Shown here: one piece after another, positions 4,821 through 61,705 of the stretch
How the letters are laid out: every line of letters starts with the position of its first letter
Numbering within the stretch: position 1 is the stretch's first letter
Sequence record: NC_028957.1
Source: Escherichia phage vB_EcoM_VR26
Length of the DNA stretch: 64,000 bases
Strand: one strand, 5' to 3'
Program-made: the position numbers and the translations under genes
Notes under the pieces: generated by a model
What the model was told of the DNA's origin: nothing
Database searches by the model: none
Seen by the model: only the letters and a program-made list of their open reading frames with translations

Positions 4821-5579
4821 TTATTCCTTACTTTGTTTCAAGTATTCTATCGCAGTTTCTAATGAAGCAATATTGTCTTTAAACATTCCTAGTCCTATGT
4901 TGCATTTTGAACATAAAATACCTCGGACTTTACCAGTCGAGTGACAATGGTCTACATTGAACCAAGTGCTTTTTGATAAAGAAGTCGAATTGTTTGTTAG
5001 TTTTATTTTACAAATTTCGCAGTATGGTGTATCCTCAATTAACTTCAGAACATCCCGTCTTTTCATCTTTATAGAATGACTGTATGATAAGTCCAGCAAT
5101 TTGGTATCCCTTGCCTTTTGACAACAAGAATCCGAACAATATTTTTGAGTCCTATTTGTTGCAGTATACTCAATAGCACACACAGGACAAATACGCTCTT
5201 CCTTGAATATTCCACCACCCTGGCATTTAACTGAACAAAATTCATGGTAACCGGTCGCGAATGTATGATAATTAACAGGCTTACCACACTTACACAGGAC
5301 TTTCCCTTTTATATCATGTAAAATACGATAACAGACCTCGTTATACGGATGTTGTTCTCTTTTACCTCCCTGACATTCCAGTGCTTCTGCTCTAAAGGCA
5401 TTTGCTTCCTCAGGATGTTTTTCCCAAAATTTCTTTGCAAATTCTAAATCATTTTTAAATAAATTTCCGTTTAGTCTATTCGGATTTTTAGTTAAAAGAT
5501 TTTCTTCAATAAATTGTTTTAAGTTCATGGAGGTATTATAAGTCACATATTTTAAAGCAAAAAGGCCCGAAGGCCTCAT
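4821..5579 (-). CDS. Cys-rich zinc-finger protein with C-terminal endonuclease VII-like nuclease motif
   Basis: C-terminal VDHCHSTGKVRGILCSKCNIGLG parallels gp49 motif DHDHELNGPKAGKVRGLLCNLCNG; several CxxC pairs; AT-rich; start ambiguous (ATGA-coupled ATG at 5579 inside hairpin, or ATG at 5528). Confidence 0.6.
   Translation of the reverse strand: MRPSGLFALKYVTYNTSMNLKQFIEENLLTKNPNRLNGNLFKNDLEFAKKFWEKHPEEANAFRAEALECQGGKREQHPYNEVCYRILHDIKGKVLCKCGKPVNYHTFATGYHEFCSVKCQGGGIFKEERICPVCAIEYTATNRTQKYCSDSCCQKARDTKLLDLSYSHSIKMKRRDVLKLIEDTPYCEICKIKLTNNSTSLSKSTWFNVDHCHSTGKVRGILCSKCNIGLGMFKDNIASLETAIEYLKQSKE
5556..5577 (-). terminator. rho-independent terminator-like hairpin (UUCG tetraloop)
   Basis: aggcc-cgaa-ggcct with adjacent A-run; overlaps stop of 5576..5836 and first codons of 4821..5579. 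Confidence 0.45.
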
Positions 5580-15131: not shown

Positions 15132-15818
15132 TTAAATGCCTCTAAATTCATATATTAAAAGTTTAAGTGCACTAGGGGTTGTTTCGTATTTCCCTTTAAG
15201 TGCTTTAACCACGGCAGTTGCCCCACCGGGTTTACCTAATGAAAGCCAAATCTGATAGATTTCACTTTTCAACGGTTCATGCCAATGGGCAGCGGTTCTT
15301 TGAGCTTTAGATGTGGCTTCTGATACGATTTTATTTCCACCATTTGCGTAAAACTCATTCATTGCTTCTGATTGTCTGGATTTGCGTTCAGGCCTATTTT
15401 GAGCGGTGCTTTGAGCTTCCTTCATTTTGGCTTTGGTTTTTGGTTTGTTTAAACGCAATGTTTGGGCCAACTTCATTTCGTCCGTCCATTCGTATCCTTC
15501 ACCACCCTGTCCACCGGGTAAAATATTAATACAATTTGAACCATGTTTAGAATTTAATAATGATATTATATATCTTTCATGTTCAAACATCATTTCCCGA
15601 TTCTGGTGACCTACAAACCAACGAATTTTATATTTGACCCCATATTTTTTATAGATATTCCAAAGTATTTTTCCAGAGCCAGGATATCGGTCTTTATTTG
15701 GGTCTAATACATTGGTCTCATGTTTACCACCATACCAAAAAACGCCTTTCGGCGTTTTAACTTTAATTATATAAGTTCTATAAAATTTTGCCTTAATAGC
15801 CATGGTCCTGGCGCTCAA
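15132..15818 (-). CDS. GIY-YIG homing endonuclease (SegF-like)
   Basis: 228 aa; N-terminal YIIKVKTPKGVFWYGGKH GIY-YIG-like; basic C-terminus; lies between soc and 56 where T4 has segF. Confidence 0.6.
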   Translation of the reverse strand: MSARTMAIKAKFYRTYIIKVKTPKGVFWYGGKHETNVLDPNKDRYPGSGKILWNIYKKYGVKYKIRWFVGHQNREMMFEHERYIISLLNSKHGSNCINILPGGQGGEGYEWTDEMKLAQTLRLNKPKTKAKMKEAQSTAQNRPERKSRQSEAMNEFYANGGNKIVSEATSKAQRTAAHWHEPLKSEIYQIWLSLGKPGGATAVVKALKGKYETTPSALKLLIYEFRGI

Positions 15819-16311
15819 AGTTGGCTTTATTTTTCAGATAATAAAGCTTGAATATTTCTTCTGCTGACATATTAAGACCAATAGCCATGTTGAATACAAA
15901 GTGCATAATGTCAATTAGTTCAAATTTAATTTCAAGCTGGTCTTCAGGAGACATTTCTGAAATTGGTTTAGATTGAGCTTCGGTATAACGAGCTTTCCAT
16001 TTTTTCCACACAGCAGACGCGTCTTTCTCACCTTTAGACATTTCACCGAGAGAGGTCAGAAGCTCACGGAATTCGTCATCAATACAATCTTTTTGTTCGC
16101 GCATCCAGGCAACAACATCACCCGCGGTGGACAGTTTATCTGGATGATAGCAATATTCTCGGTCATTAGCCAAACGAACCTGCAATGATTTCTGCATATC
16201 AAGCATTACTTGCAGTGGGTCTTTATCTTCGTGAATCAGAGCATTAAAATATGCTTCTTCGGCTTTGTCAACACCAGCAATCAGTTGTGAACATTCATTA
16301 AAATGTGCCAT
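15793..16311 (-). CDS. 56: dCTP pyrophosphatase (MazG-like)
   Basis: 172 aa; N-terminus MAHFNEC and overall sequence match recalled T4 gp56. Confidence 0.9.
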   Translation of the reverse strand: MAHFNECSQLIAGVDKAEEAYFNALIHEDKDPLQVMLDMQKSLQVRLANDREYCYHPDKLSTAGDVVAWMREQKDCIDDEFRELLTSLGEMSKGEKDASAVWKKWKARYTEAQSKPISEMSPEDQLEIKFELIDIMHFVFNMAIGLNMSAEEIFKLYYLKNKANFERQDHGY

Positions 16312-22009: not shown

Positions 22010-22338
22010 CTCTTTTTCATTTTAATCTTATCAATTTCATCTTGTATTTGCATTGTAACACACTTTTCTACATGCACTGCAAGCTCCGCTTTGCGGTCTT
22101 CAGAAGGGGTGCCGAAATCAACTGAAACTTTTCCAGATGGTTCAATTTTAATTCCGGTTACGTACACAATGTGACTGGACCCATCGGGAAGTGATAACAG
22201 AATTTCCTGTCGTACAGTTCCCATGGATTGCCGGATAATCTCCAAACTTTTTTCGTAGTAAGGTACAGAAGGAGCCTTAGCTCCCTCCGCATCTTTCTCG
22301 AAATTATCTAAATCAGATAAATCGATATCACTCATCAA
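21994..22338 (-). CDS. gp40-like protein (by position between uvsX and 41)
   Basis: 114-aa ORF in T4 gene-40 position. Confidence 0.5.
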   Translation of the reverse strand: MMSDIDLSDLDNFEKDAEGAKAPSVPYYEKSLEIIRQSMGTVRQEILLSLPDGSSHIVYVTGIKIEPSGKVSVDFGTPSEDRKAELAVHVEKCVTMQIQDEIDKIKMKKRWWKW

Positions 22339-23506
22339 GGTCTTCCATCATATCTAAATCGTTTTCGATGTCTGCCGCAGATGGTTTTGATTTGCCTTCT
22401 GGTGCAGAATATTTTTCAACTTTCGAACTAATAAGCTCATCAACTTCGGCATCAACAACAGCATTGCTATCGATTGCACCCAGCTGGTAATGGCGTTTGA
22501 TTGCATCACGGAAAGGTTCGTGCTTGAACAGTGGGCCCCAGAATTCGGTGCAGTTAGTATCTTTTGCGCGCCATGATTTTTCTTCGCGGACCATTTCACC
22601 GGTCTCAACATCAAGATATTCACGGTTATACCAACCAACTTTCGGCTTCACCACAAATCCGATTTCCATTGCCATATCAAGCAGGCCGGAATACGGGTCA
22701 ATACCACCATCGAATTTTACATCAATGAAGAATTTACTTTTCTCTTTGACCATGCGAGATTTTTCGGCGTTCAGTACAAATTGGAAACCTTCAAGCTCTT
22801 TACCGGTTTCTTTAATCTGGCGTTTACCGATAATGAATACGGTGTCCGCAGAATACATAACACCAGTACCACCGGTCATAACTGTTTTGCTGTACATCTC
22901 AATCGTCTCGATTGTATGGTTAACCGCGACACAAGGAATATCCTTGATACTAAAGAACGGGGTTACAATACGGAACAGAGATTTCAGGGATTTAGCGCGA
23001 GTCATATCGCCGACGACTTTTTCGTTCAATGCATCTTCTGTTTCTTTTTTCGATGCCATGTTACCGATTGAGTCAATAAAGATAATGACTTTTTCGCCAC
23101 GCTCAATTGCTTCAAGCTGGTTAACCATATCAACTTTCAATTGTTCAACCGACTGGATTGGTGTGTGGATAACACGTTCCGGGTCTACTTTCATTGCACG
23201 AAGATATGCTTCTGTGATACCAAATTCTGAATCATAGAACAAACAGATTGCTTCGGGGTATTTGTTCATATATGCAGAGACCATCGTTAAACCCATATTG
23301 GATTTAAAGTGTTTTGACGGACCAGCAAAAATAGTCAAACCTGACTGCATACCACCATCTAGTGCACCGCTGATTGCAATGTTCAGCATCGGGATTTTTG
23401 TACGAACTACATCTTTATCATTAAAGAACTTGGACTTGGTAAGAGTCGCGGTCATTTTGGATGTAGAAGCTTTAATCAAACGGGATTTCAAATCTGCAAT
23501 AGACAT
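22328..23506 (-). CDS. uvsX: UvsX recombinase (RecA-like)
   Basis: 392 aa; long conserved stretches match recalled T4 UvsX (FAGPSKHFKS, YDSEFGIT). Confidence 0.9.
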   Translation of the reverse strand: MSIADLKSRLIKASTSKMTATLTKSKFFNDKDVVRTKIPMLNIAISGALDGGMQSGLTIFAGPSKHFKSNMGLTMVSAYMNKYPEAICLFYDSEFGITEAYLRAMKVDPERVIHTPIQSVEQLKVDMVNQLEAIERGEKVIIFIDSIGNMASKKETEDALNEKVVGDMTRAKSLKSLFRIVTPFFSIKDIPCVAVNHTIETIEMYSKTVMTGGTGVMYSADTVFIIGKRQIKETGKELEGFQFVLNAEKSRMVKEKSKFFIDVKFDGGIDPYSGLLDMAMEIGFVVKPKVGWYNREYLDVETGEMVREEKSWRAKDTNCTEFWGPLFKHEPFRDAIKRHYQLGAIDSNAVVDAEVDELISSKVEKYSAPEGKSKPSAADIENDLDMMEDLDE

Positions 23507-23747
23507 TCATTTTTTCCATAGGCACCATTATATTTTTCTCACAGGTTTAAGATAGGATAATTATATCACTGTATTTTTAGAGCAATTAACGATTGAATCC
23601 ACGATTAATTGCACGTTCAACAATCTTCCGGGTCTGACGTTTGTCCCACCAGTACATAAAGCCAATACCAAATGCAGACAACAGCCATAGACTAATCAAT
23701 AGCATACCAATCATAATATTTTTCTCTCGGTTGTTTAGAAATTAATG

Positions 23748-24251
23748 TTAGTTAATACCTTGACGAGCTTTCTCTTTAGCTACACATTTATTAATATAGC
23801 TCAGACGGTTTTGAGCAGAACGCTGATACATATCGCGATACTCATTAGCCTTAGGAGAACCTGTCTCTGCTGCCTGATAAGCTTCCGCACGCATGATGTT
23901 TATCTGCATATTGATGTATGACATGCAAACCTGTGAAATCTGGTTAACAGTATCCAGGTCATTTTGTCGCTTGGTTTCTGCTTCCAGTTTGGCAATGATT
24001 TCGTCATGCTTCGCAGCTTGTTCGCGTTTGTACTCAATTTCACGTTGAGCATATTTTGCGCAATTGTTTCCACATTGATTATTGGCGCGTTTGTAGATAA
24101 GTCCAGTGCCACCTTTGAAATCAAAGGAACCATTATGCACCTGACGGTCTGCAGCAATTCGCGCTTTACCAATCTCACTGGCATTAACTACATCACCCTG
24201 GTAAGCACAACCAGATAGCAGCATAACAGCTGCGATAGCTAACTTTTTCAT
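23748..24251 (-). CDS. lipoprotein, unknown function
   Basis: ATG at 24249-24251 (MKKLAIAAVMLLSGC) with AGGAAA SD; lipobox LSGC; occupies T4 beta-gt/42 locus. Confidence 0.5.
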   Translation of the reverse strand: MKKLAIAAVMLLSGCAYQGDVVNASEIGKARIAADRQVHNGSFDFKGGTGLIYKRANNQCGNNCAKYAQREIEYKREQAAKHDEIIAKLEAETKRQNDLDTVNQISQVCMSYINMQINIMRAEAYQAAETGSPKANEYRDMYQRSAQNRLSYINKCVAKEKARQGIN

Positions 24252-24399
24252 TTTATTTCCTAATTGAAACATTCATAACGGGCTTGGAGCCCCAAAAATA
24301 CCCAACCCAAAATTAAAGTTGGAATCATATGCGGAGTCATTATTGCCCAATAGATTGACATACAAAAAAATGCAATCAGTACAATAATTGTAATTATCT

Positions 24400-24642
24400 T
24401 CATTTGGTTTCCTTGATGATAATTACTTGTGCGTTTGATTTACGTTCAGCAACGAGTGCCCAGATAAATGCAATAAACCATCCAACCATTGTCCAACCTA
24501 ACAGAAGGTTAACAAAGAAGATTCCGCAATTACTTTTGGTACCACGCAGTAGCGCGATAATCCACGGCAGAAAATATGCCAATGCGGCCAAGAATAAAGA
24601 ACCAGCGCCAAGAACAAAAGTACCCGCAATTATTGTTTCCAT
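24400..24642 (-). CDS. Imm-like small membrane protein
   Basis: 80 aa, two hydrophobic segments; directly upstream of gene 43 as T4 imm. Confidence 0.55.
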   Translation of the reverse strand: METIIAGTFVLGAGSLFLAALAYFLPWIIALLRGTKSNCGIFFVNLLLGWTMVGWFIAFIWALVAERKSNAQVIIIKETK

Positions 24643-24719
24643 TTTAATATCCTCAAGTTTGTCTAGTCATCAGTAGTTGATGAAAGAATAATACGGCAAT
24701 CCATTGCCGTTGTAAACAC

Positions 24720-27434
24720 TTAAAAGTCAAACATATCAAAAAGAGTTGCTTTCTTTTCGTAATCAACCTTAGCAGCTTCAGAGAAACCTGTCAATGGCTT
24801 AACAAAAGTCTTCTGGAACAGTGTGTTGTAGTCCATCCATTGCAAGACCTGGTCGCGGATTTCAATCGGGAGTTCAATCCCTGATGGCCATGCAATCACA
24901 GTTTCACCAAACGGGTTACCGACTTTAAGAGGAAGCACATACACTTTTTCCCCTTCCATGATTTGCGGAACAGTCTTCAGACCTTTAGTTGCACGCATAT
25001 AAGCGAGCACACCTTTGATATGAGCCGGGCACTTAAATCCAGGGAAACCACCTTCGTTATATTTCTGGATGTTGTTAACCGATGATACACCCGCGATGGT
25101 CATGTAGTTAAGCTCATTAAATTCCTTGTTGAATTCCTTGAAGTATGTCTGCAGAGATTCTTCGCCTTCTTGCAACATACGACGGATACATTCTTTCAGG
25201 GCTTTCTGACATGCCTTTGGAGTACTCGACTTTTGAGTTTCCAGACCCATGATTTTTAGTTTCGGAACAGCATATCGTGTGCCTTCCATATCATACACAT
25301 TCAGGGCATAACGCTTCTTCGCTGTCCAGAAACCACCAACACCCTTAGAACCCAGCGGAGGACATGCAATAGCTTCACGGTCCATAAACATAAGGTGCTG
25401 TTTGTTGTTCATGTATTCAGCCAGTTCACGGAAAGCTTTATCGATTGCCGGTTCCAGACGGTCTTTTGCAAACTTGTCCATGAAGTCAACCAGGTGGTTT
25501 GTATCACGGAATTTAGATTCGCCACCAACCTTTTTAATCAGGTTATCGCACTGGATATAAATGGAGTCAGTATCACCATAGAATACGTAAGTCCCACCAC
25601 TTGTACCACAAACACCATCAAAGTATTCGTTAACTTTACGTTCAATCCACTGCAATGCTAACTGTCCGAAAGATGTAATCGCAGTTGCATTTCGCAGGTC
25701 AAAGTAACGGAACCAGATATTGCCCAGAGCACCATAACAGCTATTGATAAGCAGTTTACGGTTAATCTGTGCGGTCATACCAGCAACTTCTTCCATCTGT
25801 GCTTTATACAGCATACCGTTCAGGACGGTTTGATTCAGACCATGTAAGGTTGTTTTCATATTGTCATCAAAGTCATGACGATAATCAACTTCTGGTTCGG
25901 TTGTGCCGGTTCCTGGATTACTCAGAGCTTCCTTAATCAGTTCACCATTACGTTGGGCAGCAAGCATATAACCTTTGTGTTCTTTTCGTTGATTAAAAAC
26001 TTTCTCAACTTCTGTCGGAATAATACCCGCAACATCTTTAAAATACATCATACCATTTGGCGCACAACTAAATGCATCAGATGGACGGTCAGCAGTTCCT
26101 GCGATGTATTCGTGCATCTGGGCTGGTGCAAATGACCCGGCAATCGTTTCTGGACTGATGTTAATCTGTCGGATGATGCTCGGATACAGAGATGTTAAGT
26201 CACAGCTCATTACATATTTGTATGCGTTCGGAATCGGTTCCTTAACAAATGCACCAGGGAACGATTGACGAACATGTGATTTGGTTTCCGGGATAACCTT
26301 GTTTTGAGTCTTCAGACTGTTAAAGATAATCGCATCCCAAGTTTTGATTGGGCTGAATACAGACTGAATCTGCATCTTTGCATAATAACCCATCGATTGG
26401 CTCAGGTTAATGAACTGTCGCTTACGGTCAATCTGTACAACACGATAAACGTCAATGATGTTATAGCTGATGTAACGTTGGTGATTGGATTCACGCAGTT
26501 TAGAAATCGGGCCATCATACGGGAGTTTACCAACACCCAGCTCAGATTCCGCAACATAGTCCAACGAGTAAGATGGTTGGTTTGTGAAGCTGAACTTTTT
26601 GTACAGGTCCAGATAATCCAGAACAGAGATACCCAGAATCTGAATGATTTCTTGTTCTTCACCAAAGCCGTTGTTAATGACCTTAACTTTTGTACGACGA
26701 TGTGGGCTCAGACGTTTTGCTGTAGCTTCACCAAATACATTTTTAAGGCGGTTGTAGATATATGGAATATCAAATTTCTCGATGTTCCAACCAGTTAACA
26801 TAACCGGAGTTTTCTCGTTCCAGAATACCAAATACTGCTGGAGCATTTCTTCTTCTGAATCGAAAGCCATATAAACAATTTTTTCCAGGATTTCACTCGG
26901 GACTTCATCACCACCATCTTCCTGCAGCTTAGCAGCAATATCAATAGACCATTGCTCCACAGTAGCGTATGGTGAGCCCAAAAGGTCAAAGACATAGAAT
27001 TTATCGTCTACCGAATCATAGTGCGTCAGGGCATCAATAGGGTGACGTGCTTCAGACGGCTCAGGGAACCCATCAGGAGATGTCACCTCGATATCGAAGT
27101 TAGCCACACGGATTTTACTTGAATCGTATTTGATTTCATGTGGGTAACGGTCGCTCAGGTATGCGAGTTTGAAATCGTCCATACCCATAGCTTCGAGGCC
27201 CATATCGTTCATGCGCTTCATCCATTGCGAAGCATCACGCATGGAATCAAACTCTTTTTTCACACAGCCTTTATTATAGATGTCTGAATATTTTGTTGCT
27301 TGGCCTTCACGAGCGTGCATAAAGAGACAAGGAGTATATGGAATTTCACGGGTTCGCTCATTACCATTCTTGTCAATATAACGTTCGTGAAGATTATCGC
27401 CGATTTGTTCGATAGTTAAATAAAATTCTTGCAT
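24720..27434 (-). CDS. 43: DNA polymerase (family B)
   Basis: 904 aa; collinear with recalled T4 gp43 (FDIE exo motif, YGDTDS polymerase motif). Confidence 0.92.
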   Translation of the reverse strand: MQEFYLTIEQIGDNLHERYIDKNGNERTREIPYTPCLFMHAREGQATKYSDIYNKGCVKKEFDSMRDASQWMKRMNDMGLEAMGMDDFKLAYLSDRYPHEIKYDSSKIRVANFDIEVTSPDGFPEPSEARHPIDALTHYDSVDDKFYVFDLLGSPYATVEQWSIDIAAKLQEDGGDEVPSEILEKIVYMAFDSEEEMLQQYLVFWNEKTPVMLTGWNIEKFDIPYIYNRLKNVFGEATAKRLSPHRRTKVKVINNGFGEEQEIIQILGISVLDYLDLYKKFSFTNQPSYSLDYVAESELGVGKLPYDGPISKLRESNHQRYISYNIIDVYRVVQIDRKRQFINLSQSMGYYAKMQIQSVFSPIKTWDAIIFNSLKTQNKVIPETKSHVRQSFPGAFVKEPIPNAYKYVMSCDLTSLYPSIIRQINISPETIAGSFAPAQMHEYIAGTADRPSDAFSCAPNGMMYFKDVAGIIPTEVEKVFNQRKEHKGYMLAAQRNGELIKEALSNPGTGTTEPEVDYRHDFDDNMKTTLHGLNQTVLNGMLYKAQMEEVAGMTAQINRKLLINSCYGALGNIWFRYFDLRNATAITSFGQLALQWIERKVNEYFDGVCGTSGGTYVFYGDTDSIYIQCDNLIKKVGGESKFRDTNHLVDFMDKFAKDRLEPAIDKAFRELAEYMNNKQHLMFMDREAIACPPLGSKGVGGFWTAKKRYALNVYDMEGTRYAVPKLKIMGLETQKSSTPKACQKALKECIRRMLQEGEESLQTYFKEFNKEFNELNYMTIAGVSSVNNIQKYNEGGFPGFKCPAHIKGVLAYMRATKGLKTVPQIMEGEKVYVLPLKVGNPFGETVIAWPSGIELPIEIRDQVLQWMDYNTLFQKTFVKPLTGFSEAAKVDYEKKATLFDMFDF

Positions 27435-27487
27435 TTGGTTTCCTTTATAGTCGAGTGATTGACTTTTGTTTGTATGGCTATTATACT

Positions 27488-27510
27488 ACAAAAGGGACCG
27501 AAGTCCCTTA
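27488..27510 (-). terminator. hairpin between regA and gene 43 (terminator or translational operator)
   Basis: aagggac-cgaa-gtccctt; weak U-tract; about 55 nt upstream of gene 43 ATG. Confidence 0.4.
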
Positions 27511-29473: not shown

Positions 29474-30169
29474 TTAATCTTGGAATTCGTGGCTAGAGCC
29501 TTGTTCCATTGCAATCACATAACTTGCTTGTGTGCCTTCAAACTTCGTAGCAAATTTATCATCTTTCGCCCAAAGCATAACACGGTAATCAGCCGGAATC
29601 ATTTTCATGTTCAGTTTGTTAATGATAAATTTAAACGCTGCATCGCCTTCGTAATCACCACACACTAGGGAATACAATGGGCGCGCTAATTCTTTATCTT
29701 CGAGCTGGTTATAACCATGGATAACAATCTTACCATCTTTGTTGGTGATAGCAAAAGTATCCAGAGACAAACCGCCAGCCACACGCAGAAGCTGCTGCAG
29801 GTCACTACCTTTCAGGTCAAAGATAACCTTAGCTACCGGGAAAGGAATCTTCTTAGCAGGGAACACGATAGTGCTCGGGTCAGCTGCAGGCCAGTGAATC
29901 GTTGAACGTTGGTCTTTGATAATGATGTTTGATGCATCTTCAGCCAGAGATACTTCAGCTTGGTCAGTTACCAGGCCCAGGATACTTAAGAAGCCGTTCA
30001 GGTCATAAATTGCAGCTTCAAAGTCAATTGTATCATTGATTTCAGATTCACCATATGACGCTCCAGTTACGGAACGAGTCAGGATGGTATTACCTGGTTT
30101 AAGCATAATGCCAGAGTAGATGGAGGTGAAGTTTTTCAGAACTGCGATGGTGTCACGACTAAATTTCAT
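29474..30169 (-). CDS. 45: sliding clamp
   Basis: 231 aa; collinear with recalled T4 gp45. Confidence 0.9.
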   Translation of the reverse strand: MKFSRDTIAVLKNFTSIYSGIMLKPGNTILTRSVTGASYGESEINDTIDFEAAIYDLNGFLSILGLVTDQAEVSLAEDASNIIIKDQRSTIHWPAADPSTIVFPAKKIPFPVAKVIFDLKGSDLQQLLRVAGGLSLDTFAITNKDGKIVIHGYNQLEDKELARPLYSLVCGDYEGDAAFKFIINKLNMKMIPADYRVMLWAKDDKFATKFEGTQASYVIAMEQGSSHEFQD

Positions 30170-31053
30170 TTCATTTTCCTATTAACATAATAATTTGACC
30201 AGGACCGGATTGCACCCTGATAATTTTCATCATTAAACCCATGTTCAATGGCGTGTTTTCTAAACGTAATATACCCCGGTTGTCCTAAAGCATTCCACAA
30301 TGTTTTAAGTTCATCTTCATACTGCAACCAGGTTCCCCTTGCTTTGGATTTCCTAAATTTTTCTTTAAATTCAGGACTAGCATTTCTTTCAGTTGCTCGT
30401 TTTGAAGCCTTTATTCTATTATCTGAATTATTCCAATATTCAGTAATTGATTTTAAATATTTTTCGTATACTTCAGATGTATTCATTATAGCTTTGAATT
30501 TTAAAGCATACTCGGCATCTTTATAACGATTTTTGACTTCAATAGACCTTGCTTGTCGAGCTTCGGCAGTCCAATATTCTTTTTGAAAGTCTTTAATTGC
30601 TTGAATGTGCTTATCCGAAATTGAGCAATCTTTACGAACACCAACATAATCAGATGTAAGTTCGGATGGATGCAATTTAACAACTTTACCTGTTTTCAAG
30701 TTTCGGTATGGAGCATATCCAGGAGCATCATACCGGCTTTGGTCGTGAGCATACGTTTTATTAAAGTACTTCTCATTGGTTACAGCTTTAACTGACATTT
30801 GAAAAATATTTTCTATTTTTCTTGGGTCCTGCTTTGTTTCCCCAATGATAGTAACGATATAGTCGCCGCTATCAATCAATTCATTATACAACTTAGTGTA
30901 TTTTGAATTCGGCGAACCTGTATAAATTTTATTATTTTTGTCGAGAATATTTTGACCGTTAAATGTCGCATCAACCTTTGAACCAATATAATAACAAGGG
31001 AATTCGTTATTTTGTTCCCTTGTTATAAAGGTTATTTTATAAATCAAATTCAC
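30166..31053 (-). CDS. GIY-YIG homing endonuclease (Seg-like)
   Basis: 295 aa; N-terminal IYKITFI...YYIGS GIY-YIG motif; AT-rich; stop overlaps gene 45 start (ATGA). Confidence 0.6.
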   Translation of the reverse strand: MNLIYKITFITREQNNEFPCYYIGSKVDATFNGQNILDKNNKIYTGSPNSKYTKLYNELIDSGDYIVTIIGETKQDPRKIENIFQMSVKAVTNEKYFNKTYAHDQSRYDAPGYAPYRNLKTGKVVKLHPSELTSDYVGVRKDCSISDKHIQAIKDFQKEYWTAEARQARSIEVKNRYKDAEYALKFKAIMNTSEVYEKYLKSITEYWNNSDNRIKASKRATERNASPEFKEKFRKSKARGTWLQYEDELKTLWNALGQPGYITFRKHAIEHGFNDENYQGAIRSWSNYYVNRKMK

Positions 31054-33639: not shown

Positions 33640-34655
33640 GGTTGCACCTCAAGGTATAATTTGTTGGCCAATGCTTTAAGAGCTTTTGATTCTTTTTCAT
33701 TGGCATCAGGTAATGCATCGATATATTCTGCCATCATATCCGTTAAGCGTTTTATGTCTAGCTCTTCATCAGCATCTGTTGTGTCTACACTATTGTCAAC
33801 CTTATTGACAATACGCAAGTCATGCACGCGCTTTTCTAATTCAGATTCAAACTTGGTCAGTTCTTTATCGACTTTTTCTACAATAACACGGACTGATAAG
33901 TCTTTGAAGTCGTCGTAGTTAATAGTTTCGTTTGGATAGAAAATCTTCCGATGCCAGGTGGTTTCATTTGGAATAAATTTCATCTCTTCGGTTTCTGTAT
34001 CGAATTCCCAGAACCCGCGAGGGTCGTTCTCATCGCCTGCTGTTAATGTCCATGGTGTACCGATGTACTTAACGTTTGCAGCTTCTGAAATGGTATGGAA
34101 GTGTCCAGACCAAACTTGCTTGTACTTCTTAAGGAAATCAGGCTCAAGCCCGTGTGATTTCAATCCTTTATAGAAATAAAACCCGGTTAATTCCCAGTGA
34201 CCAATGCAATATTCAGCACCAGAAGTTTTGATGTGTTGATGAATGTCAGTTGCGTTCTCATCGCACATCCATGGAATCATATCGATGGATACACCATCAA
34301 AATCAACAGTTGTTGGCTTATCGTAGATTTTAACATGGTCATACTTATTCAGGAGTTCGGTGATAGCGTTAGGATGAATCTTATTCTTTAGATTCATGTC
34401 ATGGTTCCCGATTATCGTGTGCAGAGTAATTCCTGCTTCACGAAGGAGTTCCATAATCTCACGGCTGAATTCCATCGTCTTATGCGTCACGGCCTTACGG
34501 ACATCAAAGATATCACCGTATTGAATCCAGACTTTAATTCCATTCGCCTTAGAATATGCAATCGCCTGTAAAATACCATCGCGTTGAATGTTTTGAGCCC
34601 ATGGGTCGTCAGCTTTGACACCCAAGTGCCAATCACCTAAATTTAAAATTTTCAT
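33636..34655 (-). CDS. 47: recombination nuclease subunit (Mre11/SbcD-like)
   Basis: 339 aa; phosphoesterase motifs DWHLG, GNHD, GHWE. Confidence 0.9.
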   Translation of the reverse strand: MKILNLGDWHLGVKADDPWAQNIQRDGILQAIAYSKANGIKVWIQYGDIFDVRKAVTHKTMEFSREIMELLREAGITLHTIIGNHDMNLKNKIHPNAITELLNKYDHVKIYDKPTTVDFDGVSIDMIPWMCDENATDIHQHIKTSGAEYCIGHWELTGFYFYKGLKSHGLEPDFLKKYKQVWSGHFHTISEAANVKYIGTPWTLTAGDENDPRGFWEFDTETEEMKFIPNETTWHRKIFYPNETINYDDFKDLSVRVIVEKVDKELTKFESELEKRVHDLRIVNKVDNSVDTTDADEELDIKRLTDMMAEYIDALPDANEKESKALKALANKLYLEVQP

Positions 34656-34696
34656 ATACTCTCCTCAGTTGGTTCATTTTATCATCCCGATTATAA

Positions 34697-34725
34697 AGCA
34701 AAAAAGGAAGCACTAGGCTTCCTTT
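34697..34725 (-). terminator. rho-independent terminator upstream of gene 47
   Basis: aggaagc-actag-gcttcct hairpin with A-run on plus strand. Confidence 0.45.
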
Positions 34726-34972
34726 CCAATTAATACACCGTACAGAGGTTCATGAGAAGACTTGAACTTGATGGGCTTATAGGTAATAGTACCTTCATTT
34801 TCTGCTTTAATACGAGCGGCTTCAAATTGAAGCATCATCTCATTTTTGTCAGATTTAATCTTATCAAAATCCGTCGAACTCGTCATTCATACGCCCTCTT
34901 AAACCTTTTCGTATTCGTCGTTCAATCTATTAAAAATCCGGATGTTCGTCATTCATTAACCTTCTCCAAATC

Positions 34973-58775: not shown

Positions 58776-59353
58776 TTACGGCATTCCTCAATAAAAGAGT
58801 TTAATGTATTTTTCTTTGTAACATCATCATATACCTTTTTAACTTTAGAAATACGAAAAGGTACTTCAATAACAGAGGTCCATAAAAATGATGCGATAAG
58901 TCCTGAGATAGCCGCAGACATAGCTGACGCGAATACAGAAATAGGCAGGTCATTATCTGTTGTCAGGAAAAAACCCAGGATTGGAAAAAACAGTATCCCC
59001 ATCCAAACATAGAACCTGGAGCACACCAACTTGTCATATTCATCGCTCCATGTACGAAAACCATATTTTTCACTATAACAAATCAATGGGTCAGGTGTTT
59101 GTTCTTTATGCGGTTCTGGTTGCCAACCTTTAACGATGTGCTTCATTTTATATTCCTCAATTAAAAGCTCTTTCATATGCCGGTTACAATGCGACCAATC
59201 AACGTTTTCCACCTTGATTCCTTCATCACCATCATCAAGGTTTGCCCAATATCTTTTGGTAATCATAAATTCATCTCTTGGAACTGGAATACCTGCACAT
59301 CCTTGTGGACCTTTCATATCACCCATGCAACCGGGTTCATACATCATTACCAT
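58772..59353 (-). CDS. membrane protein with C-terminal FIEECRK tail
   Basis: 193 aa; hydrophobic segments; C-terminal tail resembles 63255..63608 and 63595..63978. Confidence 0.45.
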   Translation of the reverse strand: MVMMYEPGCMGDMKGPQGCAGIPVPRDEFMITKRYWANLDDGDEGIKVENVDWSHCNRHMKELLIEEYKMKHIVKGWQPEPHKEQTPDPLICYSEKYGFRTWSDEYDKLVCSRFYVWMGILFFPILGFFLTTDNDLPISVFASAMSAAISGLIASFLWTSVIEVPFRISKVKKVYDDVTKKNTLNSFIEECRK

Positions 59354-60033
59354 CCCTCCATAGGGAATTCTAGATATACTTGGGCATTAACGCGGATTTC
59401 ATTGGTAATATTTTTAACACGGTCAGTGTTACGAGATACACGACCAAACCAACGCCAGCCATTGCGCACTGTCTGGGAACCAGTATGCCAGGTATGACAA
59501 TTAAACTGCAGGAGTGTGCGGTCAGGAGCTTCCCATTGCTCTAATTCACCTGATTCAATTTTAGTCAGAACTTCTTTATGCCATTGGCGATAAATCAATT
59601 CACCTTCCGGGATTTCACTAAAGGTAGCTTCGCCTGTAGCAAAATGGGTAGGACACACATCAGCGTTAACAAGACCAAGAATGTGTTCAGACATATAGCG
59701 AGGATTGTCATAATCTGGTTGACCCGCAGTAATAAAATGTTGTCCAGTTGGAATGGGTGGACGCGGAACATCATCATGATGATAGCCAGGGATAGCTGGA
59801 TACCAACCCGGCATTAACATATGCACACGTGAATCAAACACAACATGTTGATTAGTCCAATCAATTGGGAGATTGGCAATAAAGCTACGAGTGATTGGGC
59901 CACCATTATCCCAAGCAAAACTCAAATCACAGTTAAAGAACATTGGTTCATTTTTGATTTGGTCATTTTGTACGTTATGTGCAAAACCACCTACTGCACG
60001 AGCTTGACTATTAAAAGTTTTAGGACCGTTCAT
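59347..60033 (-). CDS. hypothetical protein
   Basis: 228 aa, His/Trp-rich; no recognised motif. Confidence 0.45.
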   Translation of the reverse strand: MNGPKTFNSQARAVGGFAHNVQNDQIKNEPMFFNCDLSFAWDNGGPITRSFIANLPIDWTNQHVVFDSRVHMLMPGWYPAIPGYHHDDVPRPPIPTGQHFITAGQPDYDNPRYMSEHILGLVNADVCPTHFATGEATFSEIPEGELIYRQWHKEVLTKIESGELEQWEAPDRTLLQFNCHTWHTGSQTVRNGWRWFGRVSRNTDRVKNITNEIRVNAQVYLEFPMEGW

Positions 60034-60092: not shown

Positions 60093-60743
60093 TTATTTTT
60101 GTCTATTATAATATTTCAATTCAGCGGCGCGACGTCTTTCCATTGCTTCGTCACGAGAATCACCATAGTAAAGTTGGATTTCTTTATGATTAACAGTAAT
60201 ATATGATATCCATTTACCTCTGTCTTTTCTAAACTTGACACCTGTAATTGGACCAGGTGAATCTTTTCGGGTATCCTGGTCAAATGACTGTATTGATGAT
60301 GAAGCCCATTCGCAAGTTTCTTTACTGTATAGCTTACATGAATTTATCCGATTAATGCTTGTACCTGCTGGACGAATACCCATATCTTCAACAAAATTCA
60401 AATAACCAGTTTTTCCCTTTGGTAGCCACCTATCACATATTTGTACACCAGCGCCACCATACTGCTTCCAACGATGATGGTTAGGATTTGTACACCTTTC
60501 AATCATGGCAGCATACGATGAATATGTAGGTTTGTCAGAAATAAATGAATAATGATATTTCTGACAGCCGCATGATTTGGTTTTACCTGATTTTATACGA
60601 GCGGCGGCTGTGACAAACTCTTTACCACAATGACAAATACAATTCCATTTAGTAGAAACTCCAGCGGTTTTATATGCTACCGAAACAAATTTGATTCCAT
60701 TAATAATTTTACCAGTCAAATCTTCTAATGGTCTTCCCATCAT
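60093..60743 (-). CDS. zinc-finger/AP2-like DNA-binding protein (homing-endonuclease-like)
   Basis: 216 aa; N-terminal CICHCG...CGC; central NPNHHRWKQYGGAGVQICDRW; C-terminal AP2-like segment. Confidence 0.45.
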   Translation of the reverse strand: MMGRPLEDLTGKIINGIKFVSVAYKTAGVSTKWNCICHCGKEFVTAAARIKSGKTKSCGCQKYHYSFISDKPTYSSYAAMIERCTNPNHHRWKQYGGAGVQICDRWLPKGKTGYLNFVEDMGIRPAGTSINRINSCKLYSKETCEWASSSIQSFDQDTRKDSPGPITGVKFRKDRGKWISYITVNHKEIQLYYGDSRDEAMERRRAAELKYYNRQK

Positions 60744-61705
60744 TCATCCTTTTTGAATGGTTTAATTAAATGCTGGTTAGCCTTAAAACGTTTAATATAA
60801 TCGTCATGACCTAAAGCATTATACATACTTATAATTTTACCATAATTTTCATATGCGAAGGTGCGGAACCATCCAGAAGTAATGGAGGTGCAGACTTTTT
60901 CCAGAGCCATATGGAAGCTATGGCTTGCAGGGATAATAAAATCATTAGGAACCTGTGAACGCTCCAGAGCGAGTACACATGCTTCTTCATAAACCCCTGC
61001 CAGTTTAATAACATCAGGGAGTGCTTCAAATTTTTCGCGTGAGGTCATGACTTCTGAATCATCCTTCATATAGAACTTATATGCGGGCTTATCAGCAAGC
61101 GCCACGGCCTCGTGGATGGAGTCATGGTCAAGGGTATAGATTGTATCATTAAAGAAAGTTTTCTTGCCCACGTCTAGTTTAGGGTGGCTATATGACAGTG
61201 TTTCTGCCTGGCGTTGTTGCATAATTTTCTGCAGTTCATCATTAAGAACAACACCCTTATTGCGAAGGTAATTAATATGACTCATGGTCTTCAGGAAGAA
61301 TGGATTGTTCTTCAGGTAACGATGAGATAATTTAATTGCCAGACAAATATCAGGAGTCGCCCAGTAAAAACCTGTAAGACGGTCCTTTTTAATATGATTT
61401 TCAGCATATTTCAGGAGACGATAACTTGAGGTGAAATCTTCGTCTTGAAGCTCGCCAGTAATTTCTCGTACGTTGGTCAGGGCACGGACAATATAAGCTT
61501 CAAAATAGGTTTCTTTGCCATTGTACATACATTTAAAAGCTTGGACATCAGGGTTATCCACAGGAACATGAGCACCGAACATACGTGCTTTAAAGTGGTT
61601 CCATGAGCCTTGGTCGGCAATGAAATCCCAATCAGAGTTTTCAATTTTCTGACTTTCAATCAGACCAGCGTTATGTAATGCACGAGAACCAATAACTAAC
61701 ATCAT
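60740..61705 (-). CDS. hypothetical protein
   Basis: 321-aa ORF; no recognised motif. Confidence 0.45.
   Translation of the reverse strand: MMLVIGSRALHNAGLIESQKIENSDWDFIADQGSWNHFKARMFGAHVPVDNPDVQAFKCMYNGKETYFEAYIVRALTNVREITGELQDEDFTSSYRLLKYAENHIKKDRLTGFYWATPDICLAIKLSHRYLKNNPFFLKTMSHINYLRNKGVVLNDELQKIMQQRQAETLSYSHPKLDVGKKTFFNDTIYTLDHDSIHEAVALADKPAYKFYMKDDSEVMTSREKFEALPDVIKLAGVYEEACVLALERSQVPNDFIIPASHSFHMALEKVCTSITSGWFRTFAYENYGKIISMYNALGHDDYIKRFKANQHLIKPFKKDE

What the first reader, a model, noticed from the sequence alone, without database searches (positions are those of the whole stretch)
23507..24719. The uvsX-to-43 interval lacks beta-glucosyltransferase and gene 42; a lipoprotein gene sits there instead
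In T4 the order is uvsX, beta-gt, 42 (dCMP hydroxymethylase), imm, 43. Here uvsX is followed only by a 167-aa lipoprotein (lipobox LSGC) and an 80-aa Imm-like membrane protein before gene 43. No ORF in the window resembles a thymidylate-synthase-fold hydroxymethylase, yet dCTPase 56 is retained at 15793..16311. Either cytosine-modification genes were relocated, or this phage uses a different DNA chemistry.
Basis: partly seen in the sequence, partly recalled or inferred. Interest (0 to 1): 0.6.

Follow-up and report, generated by a model that had tools for sequence, protein, structure and literature searches.

The report
T4-like phage without hydroxymethylcytosine genes
This T4-like coliphage (genus Gaprivervirus) has no genes for making or sugar-coating hydroxymethylcytosine, and its close relatives carry a thymidylate synthase with the one active-site change known to make that enzyme methylate dCMP, so the DNA most likely holds 5-methylcytosine in place of cytosine.

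Summary
Between uvsX and gene 43 the window holds only a 42-aa membrane ORF, a 167-aa lipoprotein, gp42.1 and Imm. Gene 42, beta-gt and alpha-gt are absent, and dCTPase gene 56 is kept. The window is 98% identical to Escherichia phage vB_EcoM_VR7. A profile search of the whole VR7 genome finds one thymidylate-synthase-fold gene, td, so relocation is excluded for VR7.

The lipoprotein is not a replacement. It belongs to the T4 Imm.1 family and also sits beside imm in Dhakavirus JS10. JS10 carries a 4.6-kb cytosine-modification module at the empty site.

Papers from 2021 and 2025 already note that Gaprivervirus lacks gene 42, and they call the base unknown. Published restriction data describe VR7 DNA as having modified, unglycosylated cytosines.

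My explanation is inferred and the td gene lies outside the window. All Gaprivervirus Td proteins carry Asp at the Asn177 position, and 116 other T4-like Td proteins carry Asn. This substitution turns thymidylate synthase into a dCMP methylase. Acinetobacter phages 133 and ZZ1, published as lacking gene 42 (I confirmed this for 133), also carry Asp. The control phage DLP3 carries Asn. The likely product is 5-methylcytosine DNA, as in phage Xp12. Confidence is about 0.65.

The parts
22328..23506 (-). uvsX recombinase; one flank of the empty locus
   Evidence: The 392-aa ORF matches Pfam T4_UVSX_C (3.6e-39) and RecA. It is annotated uvsX in VR7.
23571..23958 (.). The 388-bp stretch that occupies the place of the 4.6-kb cytosine-modification module of Dhakavirus JS10 (and of segA/b-gt/42 in T4)
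   Evidence: blastn homology to JS10 runs over window 22848-23570 and resumes at 23959-27500. JS10 positions 730-5308 of L007 (genes 0038-0042) have no counterpart in the window.
23586..23714 (-). 42-aa ORF with one predicted transmembrane segment; function unknown
   Evidence: The ORF is. It is identical in VR7 but not annotated there. Its C-terminal half has a weak match just after uvsX in JS10. It has no Pfam or PHROG family.
23748..24251 (-). 167-aa Imm.1-family lipoprotein (VR7ORF049c). It has lipobox LSGC, Ala at +2 and four conserved Cys
   Evidence: phrog_1754 at 3e-47. T4 Imm.1 and JS10_0043 fall in the same PHROG (6.1e-43 and 1.5e-52). It is 55% identical to JS10_0043. The AlphaFold model has pLDDT 71.5 and no significant fold match.
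24260..24403 (-). gp42.1, a 47-aa membrane peptide
   Evidence: phrog_3610 at 1.9e-26. It matches T4 sequence between genes 42 and imm. It is annotated 42.1 in VR7.
24400..24642 (-). imm, the superinfection immunity membrane protein
   Evidence: Pfam PF14373 at 9.8e-18 and phrog_1039 at 2e-30. It is 51% identical to T4 Imm.
24720..27434 (-). gene 43 DNA polymerase; the other flank of the locus
   Evidence: 904-aa ORF, annotated 43 in VR7. It is 78.5% identical to JS10 gp43 and 60% identical to T4 gp43.
15793..16311 (-). gene 56, dCTPase/dUTPase. It is the only hallmark of cytosine exclusion that lies inside the window
   Evidence: VR7 annotation, phrog_173 at 5.4e-41 and Pfam dUTPase_2 at 4.6e-6.
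34656..34712 (.). Junction of gene 47 and a-gt.2. T4 has 47.1, alpha-gt and mobB here; this phage has nothing
   Evidence: T4 gp47 maps to 33645-34655 and T4 a-gt.2 maps to 34725-34883. T4 alpha-gt has no hit at E<=1 in the window or in VR7.

Best explanation
The window comes from a Gaprivervirus, a sister genus of Dhakavirus within the T-even subfamily.

Shown: this lineage has no nucleotide-level cytosine-modification module between uvsX and imm. T4 has b-gt and 42 there. Dhakavirus has a 5-hydroxy-dCMP-synthase plus arabinosylation module there. The alpha-gt locus is also empty. The remaining genes (a small TM ORF, an Imm.1-family lipoprotein, gp42.1 and Imm) are the ordinary neighbours of that locus.

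Inferred: cytosine is still excluded from the DNA, but it is replaced by 5-methylcytosine rather than hydroxymethylcytosine. The proposed pathway runs as follows.
1. gp56 hydrolyses dCTP and dCDP to dCMP.
2. The phage's only thymidylate-synthase homologue, annotated 'Td', methylates dCMP to 5-methyl-dCMP. It keeps every catalytic residue but has Asp in place of Asn177 (E. coli numbering). It uses methylene-tetrahydrofolate, which Frd recycles.
3. gp1 dNMP kinase and host NDP kinase convert 5-methyl-dCMP to 5-methyl-dCTP.
4. gp43 incorporates it into DNA.
5. dTMP would come from deamination of 5-methyl-dC nucleotides by the conserved Cd, from residual dUMP activity of Td, or from host ThyA.

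On this model Alc, DenA and DenB act only on host cytosine DNA. The td, cd, frd, gene 1, alc and den genes lie outside the 64-kb window. They are known only from VR7 and other relatives.
For: 1. Identity. The window is 98.0% identical to VR7 over 5.2 kb, and 31 records share this interval.

2. No other TS-fold gene. A TS-family profile HMM and tblastn find only td in the complete VR7 genome, and nothing in the window.

3. Specificity residue. VR7 Td reads PFDIGSY where T4 Td (PDB 1TIS) reads PFNIASY. Among 120 cluster representatives, the four Gaprivervirus-clade proteins have Asp and the other 116 have Asn.

4. Rest of the active site. The Gaprivervirus Td keeps R21, E58, W80, Y94, R126, R127, L143, C146, H147, Q165, R166, S167, D169, G173, H207 and Y209. 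Published diagnostics: N177D means a dCMP substrate, L143D/E means a hydroxymethyl product, and D169N means a 5-hydroxy product (PMC13326640). The signature D177 + L143 + D169 therefore predicts a methyl product.

5. Precedent. Changing Asn177 to Asp switches TS to a dCMP methylase (papers cited in PMC8670742). Xp12-type phages make 5mdCMP with an Asp177 TS homologue. Five of seven predicted enzymes were confirmed in vivo together with T4 gp1 (bioRxiv 10.1101/2024.12.05.627091).

6. Accelerated divergence of Td only. For gp43, RegA, gp62 and Imm, JS10 and Gaprivervirus are each other's closest relatives. For Td the identities are T4-JS10 82.5% and JS10-Gaprivervirus 68.1%.

7. Independent lineages. 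Acinetobacter phage 133 has a single TS-fold gene in its whole genome, and it carries Asp177. Phage ZZ1 Td also carries Asp177. Both phages are reported to lack gene 42 while keeping alc, denB and dCTPase. The control phage DLP3 has a separate 5hodCMP synthase, and its Td has Asn177.

8. Experiment. Restriction analysis describes VR7 DNA as carrying modified cytosines, while the same legend calls the T4147 control hydroxymethylated. VR7 is classed with the unglycosylated phages (PMC6326788 main text and supplement).

9. Supporting enzymes. VR7 keeps frd overlapping td, cd about 85% identical to T4 Cd with its catalytic motifs intact, and gene 1.
Against: - No nucleoside analysis of any Gaprivervirus was found, and the restriction figure itself could not be viewed.
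- The td gene lies outside the window, so the Asp177 allele is inferred for this phage from relatives.
- Natural dCMP-modifying TS homologues (T4 gp42, the Xp12-like enzyme) also differ at His147. Gaprivervirus Td keeps His147, so it resembles the laboratory N177D mutants more than the established natural enzymes. Its real dCMP/dUMP preference is unmeasured.
- 5mC DNA should be a substrate for E. coli McrBC, McrA and Mrr. VR7 has no annotated arn gene, yet one Gaprivervirus record lists K-12 MG1655 as host.
- It has not been tested whether Alc and DenB spare 5mC DNA.
Confidence: 0.65

Rival explanations
1. The phage makes a so-far unknown non-canonical cytosine derivative using an uncharacterised enzyme. 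The Asp177 Td would then be incidental or would make a precursor. This is the position of the published genus surveys.
For: PMC8056088 and PMC12115623 propose an unknown base or protein. VR7 has about 30 ORFs with no homologue. The restriction data say only 'modified cytosines'.
Against: The larger genus-specific ORFs I examined are HNH homing endonucleases or DUF proteins that Dhakavirus also has. No candidate modification enzyme was found. The Asp177 Td accounts for the data, and the same change recurs in two other lineages reported to lack gene 42.
Confidence: 0.15
2. Td(Asp177) acts as a dCMP hydroxymethylase, so the DNA carries unglycosylated 5-hydroxymethylcytosine. That would be T4 chemistry with a recruited enzyme and no sugars.
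For: Asp177 is shared with T4 gp42. Csp6I, whose cutting indicates no glycosylation, does not distinguish methyl from hydroxymethyl (legend).
Against: Leu143 is retained. Hydroxymethylases carry Asp or Glu at that position to admit water. Laboratory Asn-to-Asp mutants give the methyl product. The BREX supplement, which used T4 beta-glucosyltransferase treatment, labels T4147 'hydroxymethylated' and labels VR7 only 'modified'.
Confidence: 0.08
3. Gene 42 and the glycosyltransferases exist elsewhere in this particular phage's genome, outside the 64-kb window. That would be a simple rearrangement.
For: Only 64 kb of roughly 170 kb can be seen.
Against: The complete genome of the 98%-identical VR7 has no second TS-fold gene and no homologue of b-gt, a-gt or the JS10 module. 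Published pan-genome surveys score the whole genus negative.
Confidence: 0.02
4. The DNA contains ordinary cytosine. gp56 would serve only as a dUTPase, as in Krischvirus (RB49-like) phages.
For: gp56 homologues occur in T4-like phages that use cytosine DNA (table).
Against: Gaprivervirus also keeps alc, denB, denA and ndd, which cytosine-DNA genera lack. VR7 DNA resists cytosine-methylation-sensitive enzymes.
Confidence: 0.03

Closest known systems
Xanthomonas phage Xp12 / Pseudomonas phage PaMx74: complete 5-methylcytosine substitution
   Same: There is a single thymidylate-synthase homologue with Asp at the Asn177 position, together with a dCMP-deaminase-family enzyme and DHFR. 5mdCMP is made at the nucleotide level and thymidine nucleotides come from deamination.
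   Different: Xp12-type phages are siphoviruses. Their TS homologue is only about 28% identical and also differs at positions 142, 143, 147 and 165. Here the enzyme is a barely altered T4-type Td, set in the full T-even machinery for host shutoff and cytosine exclusion (56, alc, denA, denB). Its product has not been measured.
T4 glucosyl-hydroxymethylcytosine system (56, 42, 1, alpha-gt, beta-gt, alc, denA, denB)
   Same: Gene 56 is in the window. Genes 1, alc, denA, denB, ndd, cd, td and frd are in VR7. The overall logic of excluding dCTP and attacking cytosine DNA is the same.
   Different: gp42, alpha-gt and beta-gt are absent from both of their T4 loci. Arn is not annotated.
RB69 / DLP3 / Dhakavirus arabinosyl-5-hydroxycytosine system (PMC13326640)
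   Same: It sits in the same genomic slot. JS10 carries its module between uvsX and the Imm.1-like lipoprotein.
   Different: All five JS10 module genes are missing here. They are the TS homologue with N177D+L143E+D169N, a kinase-like gene, an isomerase-like gene, a nucleotidyltransferase-kinase and phrog_3891.
Engineered thymidylate synthases, E. coli N177D and L. casei N229D
   Same: The Gaprivervirus Td has the same single specificity substitution on an otherwise intact TS active site.
   Different: The Gaprivervirus enzyme is natural. It carries 33 further lineage-fixed changes, including A179G and A182G next to the site. Its kinetics are unknown.
T4 Imm.1 (for the lipoprotein)
   Same: Both fall in phrog_1754. 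Both have a lipobox, share three of the family's conserved Cys and sit adjacent to imm.
   Different: The gene lies on the other side of imm. It is 42 aa longer and only about 23% identical overall. Neither protein has a known function.

Membership tests
T-even glucosyl-hmC DNA system | dCMP hydroxymethylase gp42 (TS fold with Asp177 and an acidic residue at 143) | tested here: not met
   There is no TS-fold ORF in the window. Only td is found in whole VR7.
T-even glucosyl-hmC DNA system | alpha- and/or beta-glucosyltransferase | tested here: not met
   tblastn with T4 b-gt and a-gt finds no hit in the window or in VR7, and both loci are closed up.
T-even glucosyl-hmC DNA system | dCTPase gp56 | tested here: met
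   Window 15793-16311.
T-even glucosyl-hmC DNA system | Alc, DenA and DenB, the functions that act against cytosine DNA | tested here: inconclusive
   These genes are annotated in VR7 and scored present for the genus. They lie outside this window.
Arabinosyl-5-hydroxycytosine system (RB69/DLP3/Dhakavirus) | 5hodCMP synthase (TS homologue with N177D, L143E and D169N) | tested here: not met
   JS10_0039 has this signature. It has no homologue in the window or in VR7.
Arabinosyl-5-hydroxycytosine system (RB69/DLP3/Dhakavirus) | Sugar-activation and transfer genes (nucleotidyltransferase-kinase and others) | tested here: not met
   JS10 0038 and 0040-0042 have no hit at E<=0.05.
5-methyl-dCMP synthase (Asp177 thymidylate-synthase homologue, Xp12 type) | TS fold with the catalytic Cys146 and the phosphate- and folate-binding residues | tested here: met
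   Shown for VR7, SP18 and three further Gaprivervirus-clade Td proteins. This was not tested in the window phage itself.
5-methyl-dCMP synthase (Asp177 thymidylate-synthase homologue, Xp12 type) | Asp at the Asn177 position | tested here: met
   Asp in 5 of 5 Gaprivervirus-clade sequences, against Asn in 116 of 116 other T4-like Td proteins.
5-methyl-dCMP synthase (Asp177 thymidylate-synthase homologue, Xp12 type) | No hydroxymethylase (L143D/E) or hydroxylase (D169N) signature | tested here: met
   Leu143 and Asp169 are retained. The criteria come from PMC13326640.
5-methyl-dCMP synthase (Asp177 thymidylate-synthase homologue, Xp12 type) | Demonstrated conversion of dCMP to 5mdCMP, and 5mC in virion DNA | not testable with these tools
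   Only indirect evidence exists: the restriction phenotype of VR7 DNA.
5-methyl-dCMP synthase (Asp177 thymidylate-synthase homologue, Xp12 type) | The gene is present in this very phage | not testable with these tools
   td maps to about 142 kb in VR7. The window corresponds roughly to the first 64 kb of VR7.
Imm.1 lipoprotein family (phrog_1754) | Profile match plus a lipoprotein signal peptide | tested here: met
   The window protein scores 3e-47, T4 Imm.1 6.1e-43 and JS10_0043 1.5e-52. The lipobox LSGC is invariant in the alignment.
Imm superinfection immunity protein (PF14373) | Pfam domain above the gathering score | tested here: met
   64.2 bits against a cut-off of 27.9.

The most novel reading that the evidence does not exclude
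T4-like phages have swapped their cytosine chemistry at least twice independently, once in Gaprivervirus and at least once in Acinetobacter phages 133 and ZZ1. They did so by losing gene 42 and converting their own thymidylate synthase into a dCMP methylase through a single Asn177Asp change. These phages would then run the whole T-even programme of host shutoff and cytosine exclusion on 5-methylcytosine DNA. They would have no true thymidylate synthase of their own, and would make dTMP by deaminating 5-methyl-dC nucleotides or by relying on host ThyA.
Probability: 0.5. Interest if true: 0.7.

Novelty: new variant of a known kind. Interest (0 to 1): 0.6.

Why it matters
Two recent surveys list Gaprivervirus as a T-even genus whose DNA base is unknown. 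For that reason they decline to judge its safety for phage therapy.

A specific hypothesis, 5-methylcytosine made by an Asp177 Td, can be checked in a day by LC-MS or with methyl-dependent restriction enzymes.

If it holds, three things follow.
- A one-residue change plus one module loss is enough to move a T4-type phage from one cytosine modification to another.
- This would be a natural counterpart of the classic TS N177D and N229D mutants.
- It would predict how these phages fare against defences. They would be sensitive to BREX, as already observed, and to 5mC-dependent type IV enzymes. They would resist many type II enzymes.

It also warns annotators that 'td' is not always a thymidylate synthase.

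Tried and rejected
- Relocated gene 42. I ran tblastn (word size 2) and a TS-family HMM with --max over every six-frame ORF of the window and of the whole VR7 genome. Only td came up.
- Other modification enzymes among genus-specific ORFs. Window 4821-5579 and 60093-60743 are HNH homing endonucleases. Window 59347-60033 and 60740-61705 (DUF7277+DUF7275) match only PHROG or DUF families of unknown function, and the VR7 annotation notes homologues in RB69 and JS98. VR7ORF147c, annotated 'deaminase-like', shows no obvious deaminase motif on translation. I did not pursue it.
- Function of the lipoprotein. It has no Pfam family. The word-indexed search found only 9 homologue clusters. The AlphaFold model (pLDDT 71.5, pTM 0.44) shows a disordered tether, a small hairpin and a long helical hairpin. 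Foldseek against the PDB gave nothing better than E = 1.9. It is not the o-spanin, because VR7 has pseT.2 and pseT.3.
- Cd as a retuned 5mC deaminase. VR7 Cd is about 85% identical to T4 Cd and shows no sign of accelerated change. This neither supports nor refutes the idea.
- Conflict in the literature. Petrov 2010, Table 4, lists phage 133 as having gene 42. I fetched the whole 133 genome and found only td.
- The original VR7 papers (Arch Virol 2010 and 2011) are not held in the library. One literature query was badly designed and returned noise.
- The promoter and terminator scan of the interval showed nothing beyond what shuffled sequence gives.
Full report
**What the window is.** A 5.2-kb query spanning uvsX to gene 43 is 98.0% identical to Escherichia phage vB_EcoM_VR7 (genus Gaprivervirus, Tevenvirinae). 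Thirty-one phage records cover at least 80% of it in one place, all at 90-99% identity. The window is collinear with roughly the first 64 kb of VR7, from rIIA to e.4.

**The observation.** On the minus strand, uvsX (22328-23506) is followed by four ORFs and then gene 43 (24720-27434).
- A 42-aa single-TM ORF at 23586-23714. It is identical in VR7 but unannotated there.
- A 167-aa lipoprotein at 23748-24251.
- gp42.1 at 24260-24403.
- Imm at 24400-24642.

T4 has uvsX, segA, b-gt, 42, imm, imm.1 and 43. The window has no TS-fold ORF: the best tblastn E is 0.23 and the best profile-HMM E is 0.52. It has no homologue of b-gt or a-gt. At the T4 a-gt locus, gene 47 directly abuts a-gt.2. Gene 56 is present at 15793-16311.

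**The lipoprotein is not a substitute.** The window protein, JS10_0043 and T4 Imm.1 all fall in phrog_1754, with E-values of 3e-47, 1.5e-52 and 6.1e-43. The family has an invariant lipobox and conserved cysteines.

In Dhakavirus JS10 the order is uvsX, 0038-0042, lipoprotein, 42.1, imm, 43. blastn homology between the window and JS10 stops about 60 nt after uvsX (window 23570) and resumes inside the lipoprotein gene (window 23959). About 390 bp therefore stand where JS10 has 4.6 kb.

The JS10 module contains a TS homologue with the 5-hydroxy-dCMP-synthase signature (N177D, L143E, D169N). It also holds a thymidylate-kinase-like protein, a phosphoheptose-isomerase-like protein, a nucleotidyltransferase-kinase fusion and an unknown protein. 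This matches the arabinosyl-5-hydroxycytosine clusters described in PMC13326640. None of these genes has a homologue in the window or in VR7.

The function of the lipoprotein remains unknown. Its model has moderate confidence and no significant structural neighbour. My guess is an envelope or superinfection-related role, based on a predicted outer-membrane lipoprotein encoded next to imm. This is a guess only.

**Relocation is excluded; the absence is already published.** I read the full VR7 annotation and searched its DNA. It has no gene 42, a-gt or b-gt, and td is its only TS-fold gene. It does have 56, gene 1, cd, td, frd, alc, denA, denB and ndd.

PMC8056088 (2021) and PMC12115623 (2025) state the same for the genus. 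They conclude that these phages may have an unknown non-canonical base, because this gene set would not allow replication with ordinary cytosine.

The E. coli BREX paper (PMC6326788) reports restriction analysis. It describes VR7 DNA as carrying modified cytosines and classes it as unglycosylated. In the same legend the T4147 control is called hydroxymethylated.

**The lead: Td carries the substrate-specificity switch.** VR7 Td reads ...QRSVDVFLGLPFDIGSY... where T4 Td (PDB 1TIS, 66% identical) and E. coli ThyA read PFNIASY. The changed residue is Asn177 in E. coli numbering.

Of 120 cluster representatives most similar to VR7 Td, the four Gaprivervirus-clade proteins have Asp. These are SP18, Yersinia phage vB_YenM_P8 and two metagenomic sequences. 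The other 116 have Asn.

All other active-site residues are retained, including Cys146, His147, Leu143 and Asp169. The literature gives the following rules.
- Asn177 to Asp switches TS from dUMP to dCMP and gives 5-methyl-dCMP.
- An acidic residue at 143 marks hydroxymethylases.
- Asn at 169 marks 5-hydroxy-dCMP synthases.

The Gaprivervirus signature therefore predicts a dCMP methylase. Xp12-type phages use such an enzyme for complete 5mC substitution, and they derive thymidine nucleotides by deaminating 5-methyl-dC nucleotides. In the published in vivo assay T4 gp1 phosphorylates 5mdCMP. An Xp12-like Xanthomonas phage shows the TS(Asp177)-deaminase-DHFR cluster.

**Supporting comparative evidence.**
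- Rate. JS10 and Gaprivervirus are each other's closest relatives for gp43, RegA, gp62 and Imm. For Td the identities are T4-JS10 82.5%, JS10-Gaprivervirus 68.1% and T4-Gaprivervirus 65.3%. Thirty-four positions are fixed-different in the Gaprivervirus clade.
- Recurrence. Acinetobacter phages 133 and ZZ1 are the other T4-like phages reported to lack gene 42 while keeping alc, denB and dCTPase. Their Td proteins also have Asp177, Leu143 and Asp169. Petrov 2010 lists 133 as having gene 42. I therefore fetched the whole 133 genome and found a single TS-fold ORF, td. Phage DLP3 has a separate, experimentally verified 5hodCMP synthase, and its Td has Asn177. Gaprivervirus Td is nearer to enterobacterial T4-like Td proteins (65-69%) than to the Acinetobacter Asp177 proteins (53%). 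The substitution therefore arose independently.
- Wider occurrence. Six of 149 diverse TS cluster representatives also combine Asp177 with otherwise canonical TS motifs.

**Proposed mechanism.** The gene content is shown. The pathway below is inferred.
1. gp56 converts dCTP and dCDP to dCMP.
2. Td(Asp177) methylates dCMP using methylene-THF, and Frd recycles the folate.
3. gp1 and host NDP kinase produce 5-methyl-dCTP.
4. gp43 incorporates it.
5. dTMP comes from Cd acting on 5-methyl-dC nucleotides, from residual dUMP activity of Td, or from host ThyA. VR7 Cd is about 85% identical to T4 Cd with intact catalytic motifs.

**Caveats.**
- td lies outside the window.
- No mass-spectrometric analysis of the base was found.
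- Td keeps His147, which natural dCMP-modifying homologues usually lack.
- 5mC DNA should be attacked by McrBC, McrA and Mrr. VR7 has no annotated arn gene, and one Gaprivervirus record lists K-12 MG1655 as host.
- The original VR7 papers could not be read. Prior publication of this idea outside the open literature therefore cannot be excluded. Targeted searches of the held library found none.

**Verdict.** The finding is real. As an absence of genes it is already known, and the reading of the lipoprotein is mistaken. Following it up gives a concrete, testable answer to a question the literature still lists as open. The chemistry would be a new variant of a known kind: Xp12-like 5mC substitution running inside a T-even framework. 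Interest is 0.6. Confidence in the 5mC/Td mechanism is about 0.65.

Noticed in passing
window 30166-31053 (-): A 295-aa homing-endonuclease ORF (phrog_7504, 6.5e-15; weak match to T4 SegA) lies between gene 45 and rpbA. In VR7 these two genes are adjacent, so this is an insertion relative to the closest relative.
   Followed up: partly
window 23586-23714 (-): An unannotated 42-aa ORF with one transmembrane segment lies directly after the lipoprotein gene. It is identical in VR7. Its C-terminal half has a weak match just downstream of uvsX in JS10.
   Followed up: partly
window 4821-5579 (-) and 60093-60743 (-): Two HNH homing endonucleases (phrog_1271 at 1.1e-32 and phrog_374 at 1.8e-59) correspond to VR7ORF006c and ORF135c. 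The VR7 annotation gives them no T4 or JS98 homologue. SegF also sits beside gene 56 at 15132-15818.
   Followed up: partly
window 60740-61705 (-): A 321-aa protein with DUF7277 and DUF7275 (Pfam 3.6e-26 and 3.9e-74) has no known function. It is shared with JS98-type phages.
   Followed up: no
window 34656-34712: The alpha-glucosyltransferase locus is cleanly closed. Gene 47 abuts a-gt.2, with no trace of T4 47.1, a-gt or mobB.
   Followed up: yes
L010:22517-23464 (phage 133 td); whole genome in L017, L014, L015, L016, L019, L010, L018: Petrov et al. 2010, Table 4, lists Acinetobacter phage 133 as carrying gene 42. The deposited genome has only one TS-fold ORF, td with Asp177. Its uvsX-43 interval holds an HNH endonuclease, a phosphoesterase-like ORF and small hypothetical ORFs.
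   Followed up: yes
L003:17137-17562 (VR7ORF147c, outside the window): This ORF is annotated as similar to a cytidine/deoxycytidylate deaminase. The 141-aa translation shows no obvious zinc-deaminase motif (HAE or PCxxC), so the annotation looks doubtful.
   Followed up: no
L005 (VR7 160192-161707): VR7 keeps arn.1 to arn.4 but has no annotated arn, the McrBC inhibitor. That is unexpected for a phage whose cytosines are modified but not glycosylated.
   Followed up: no
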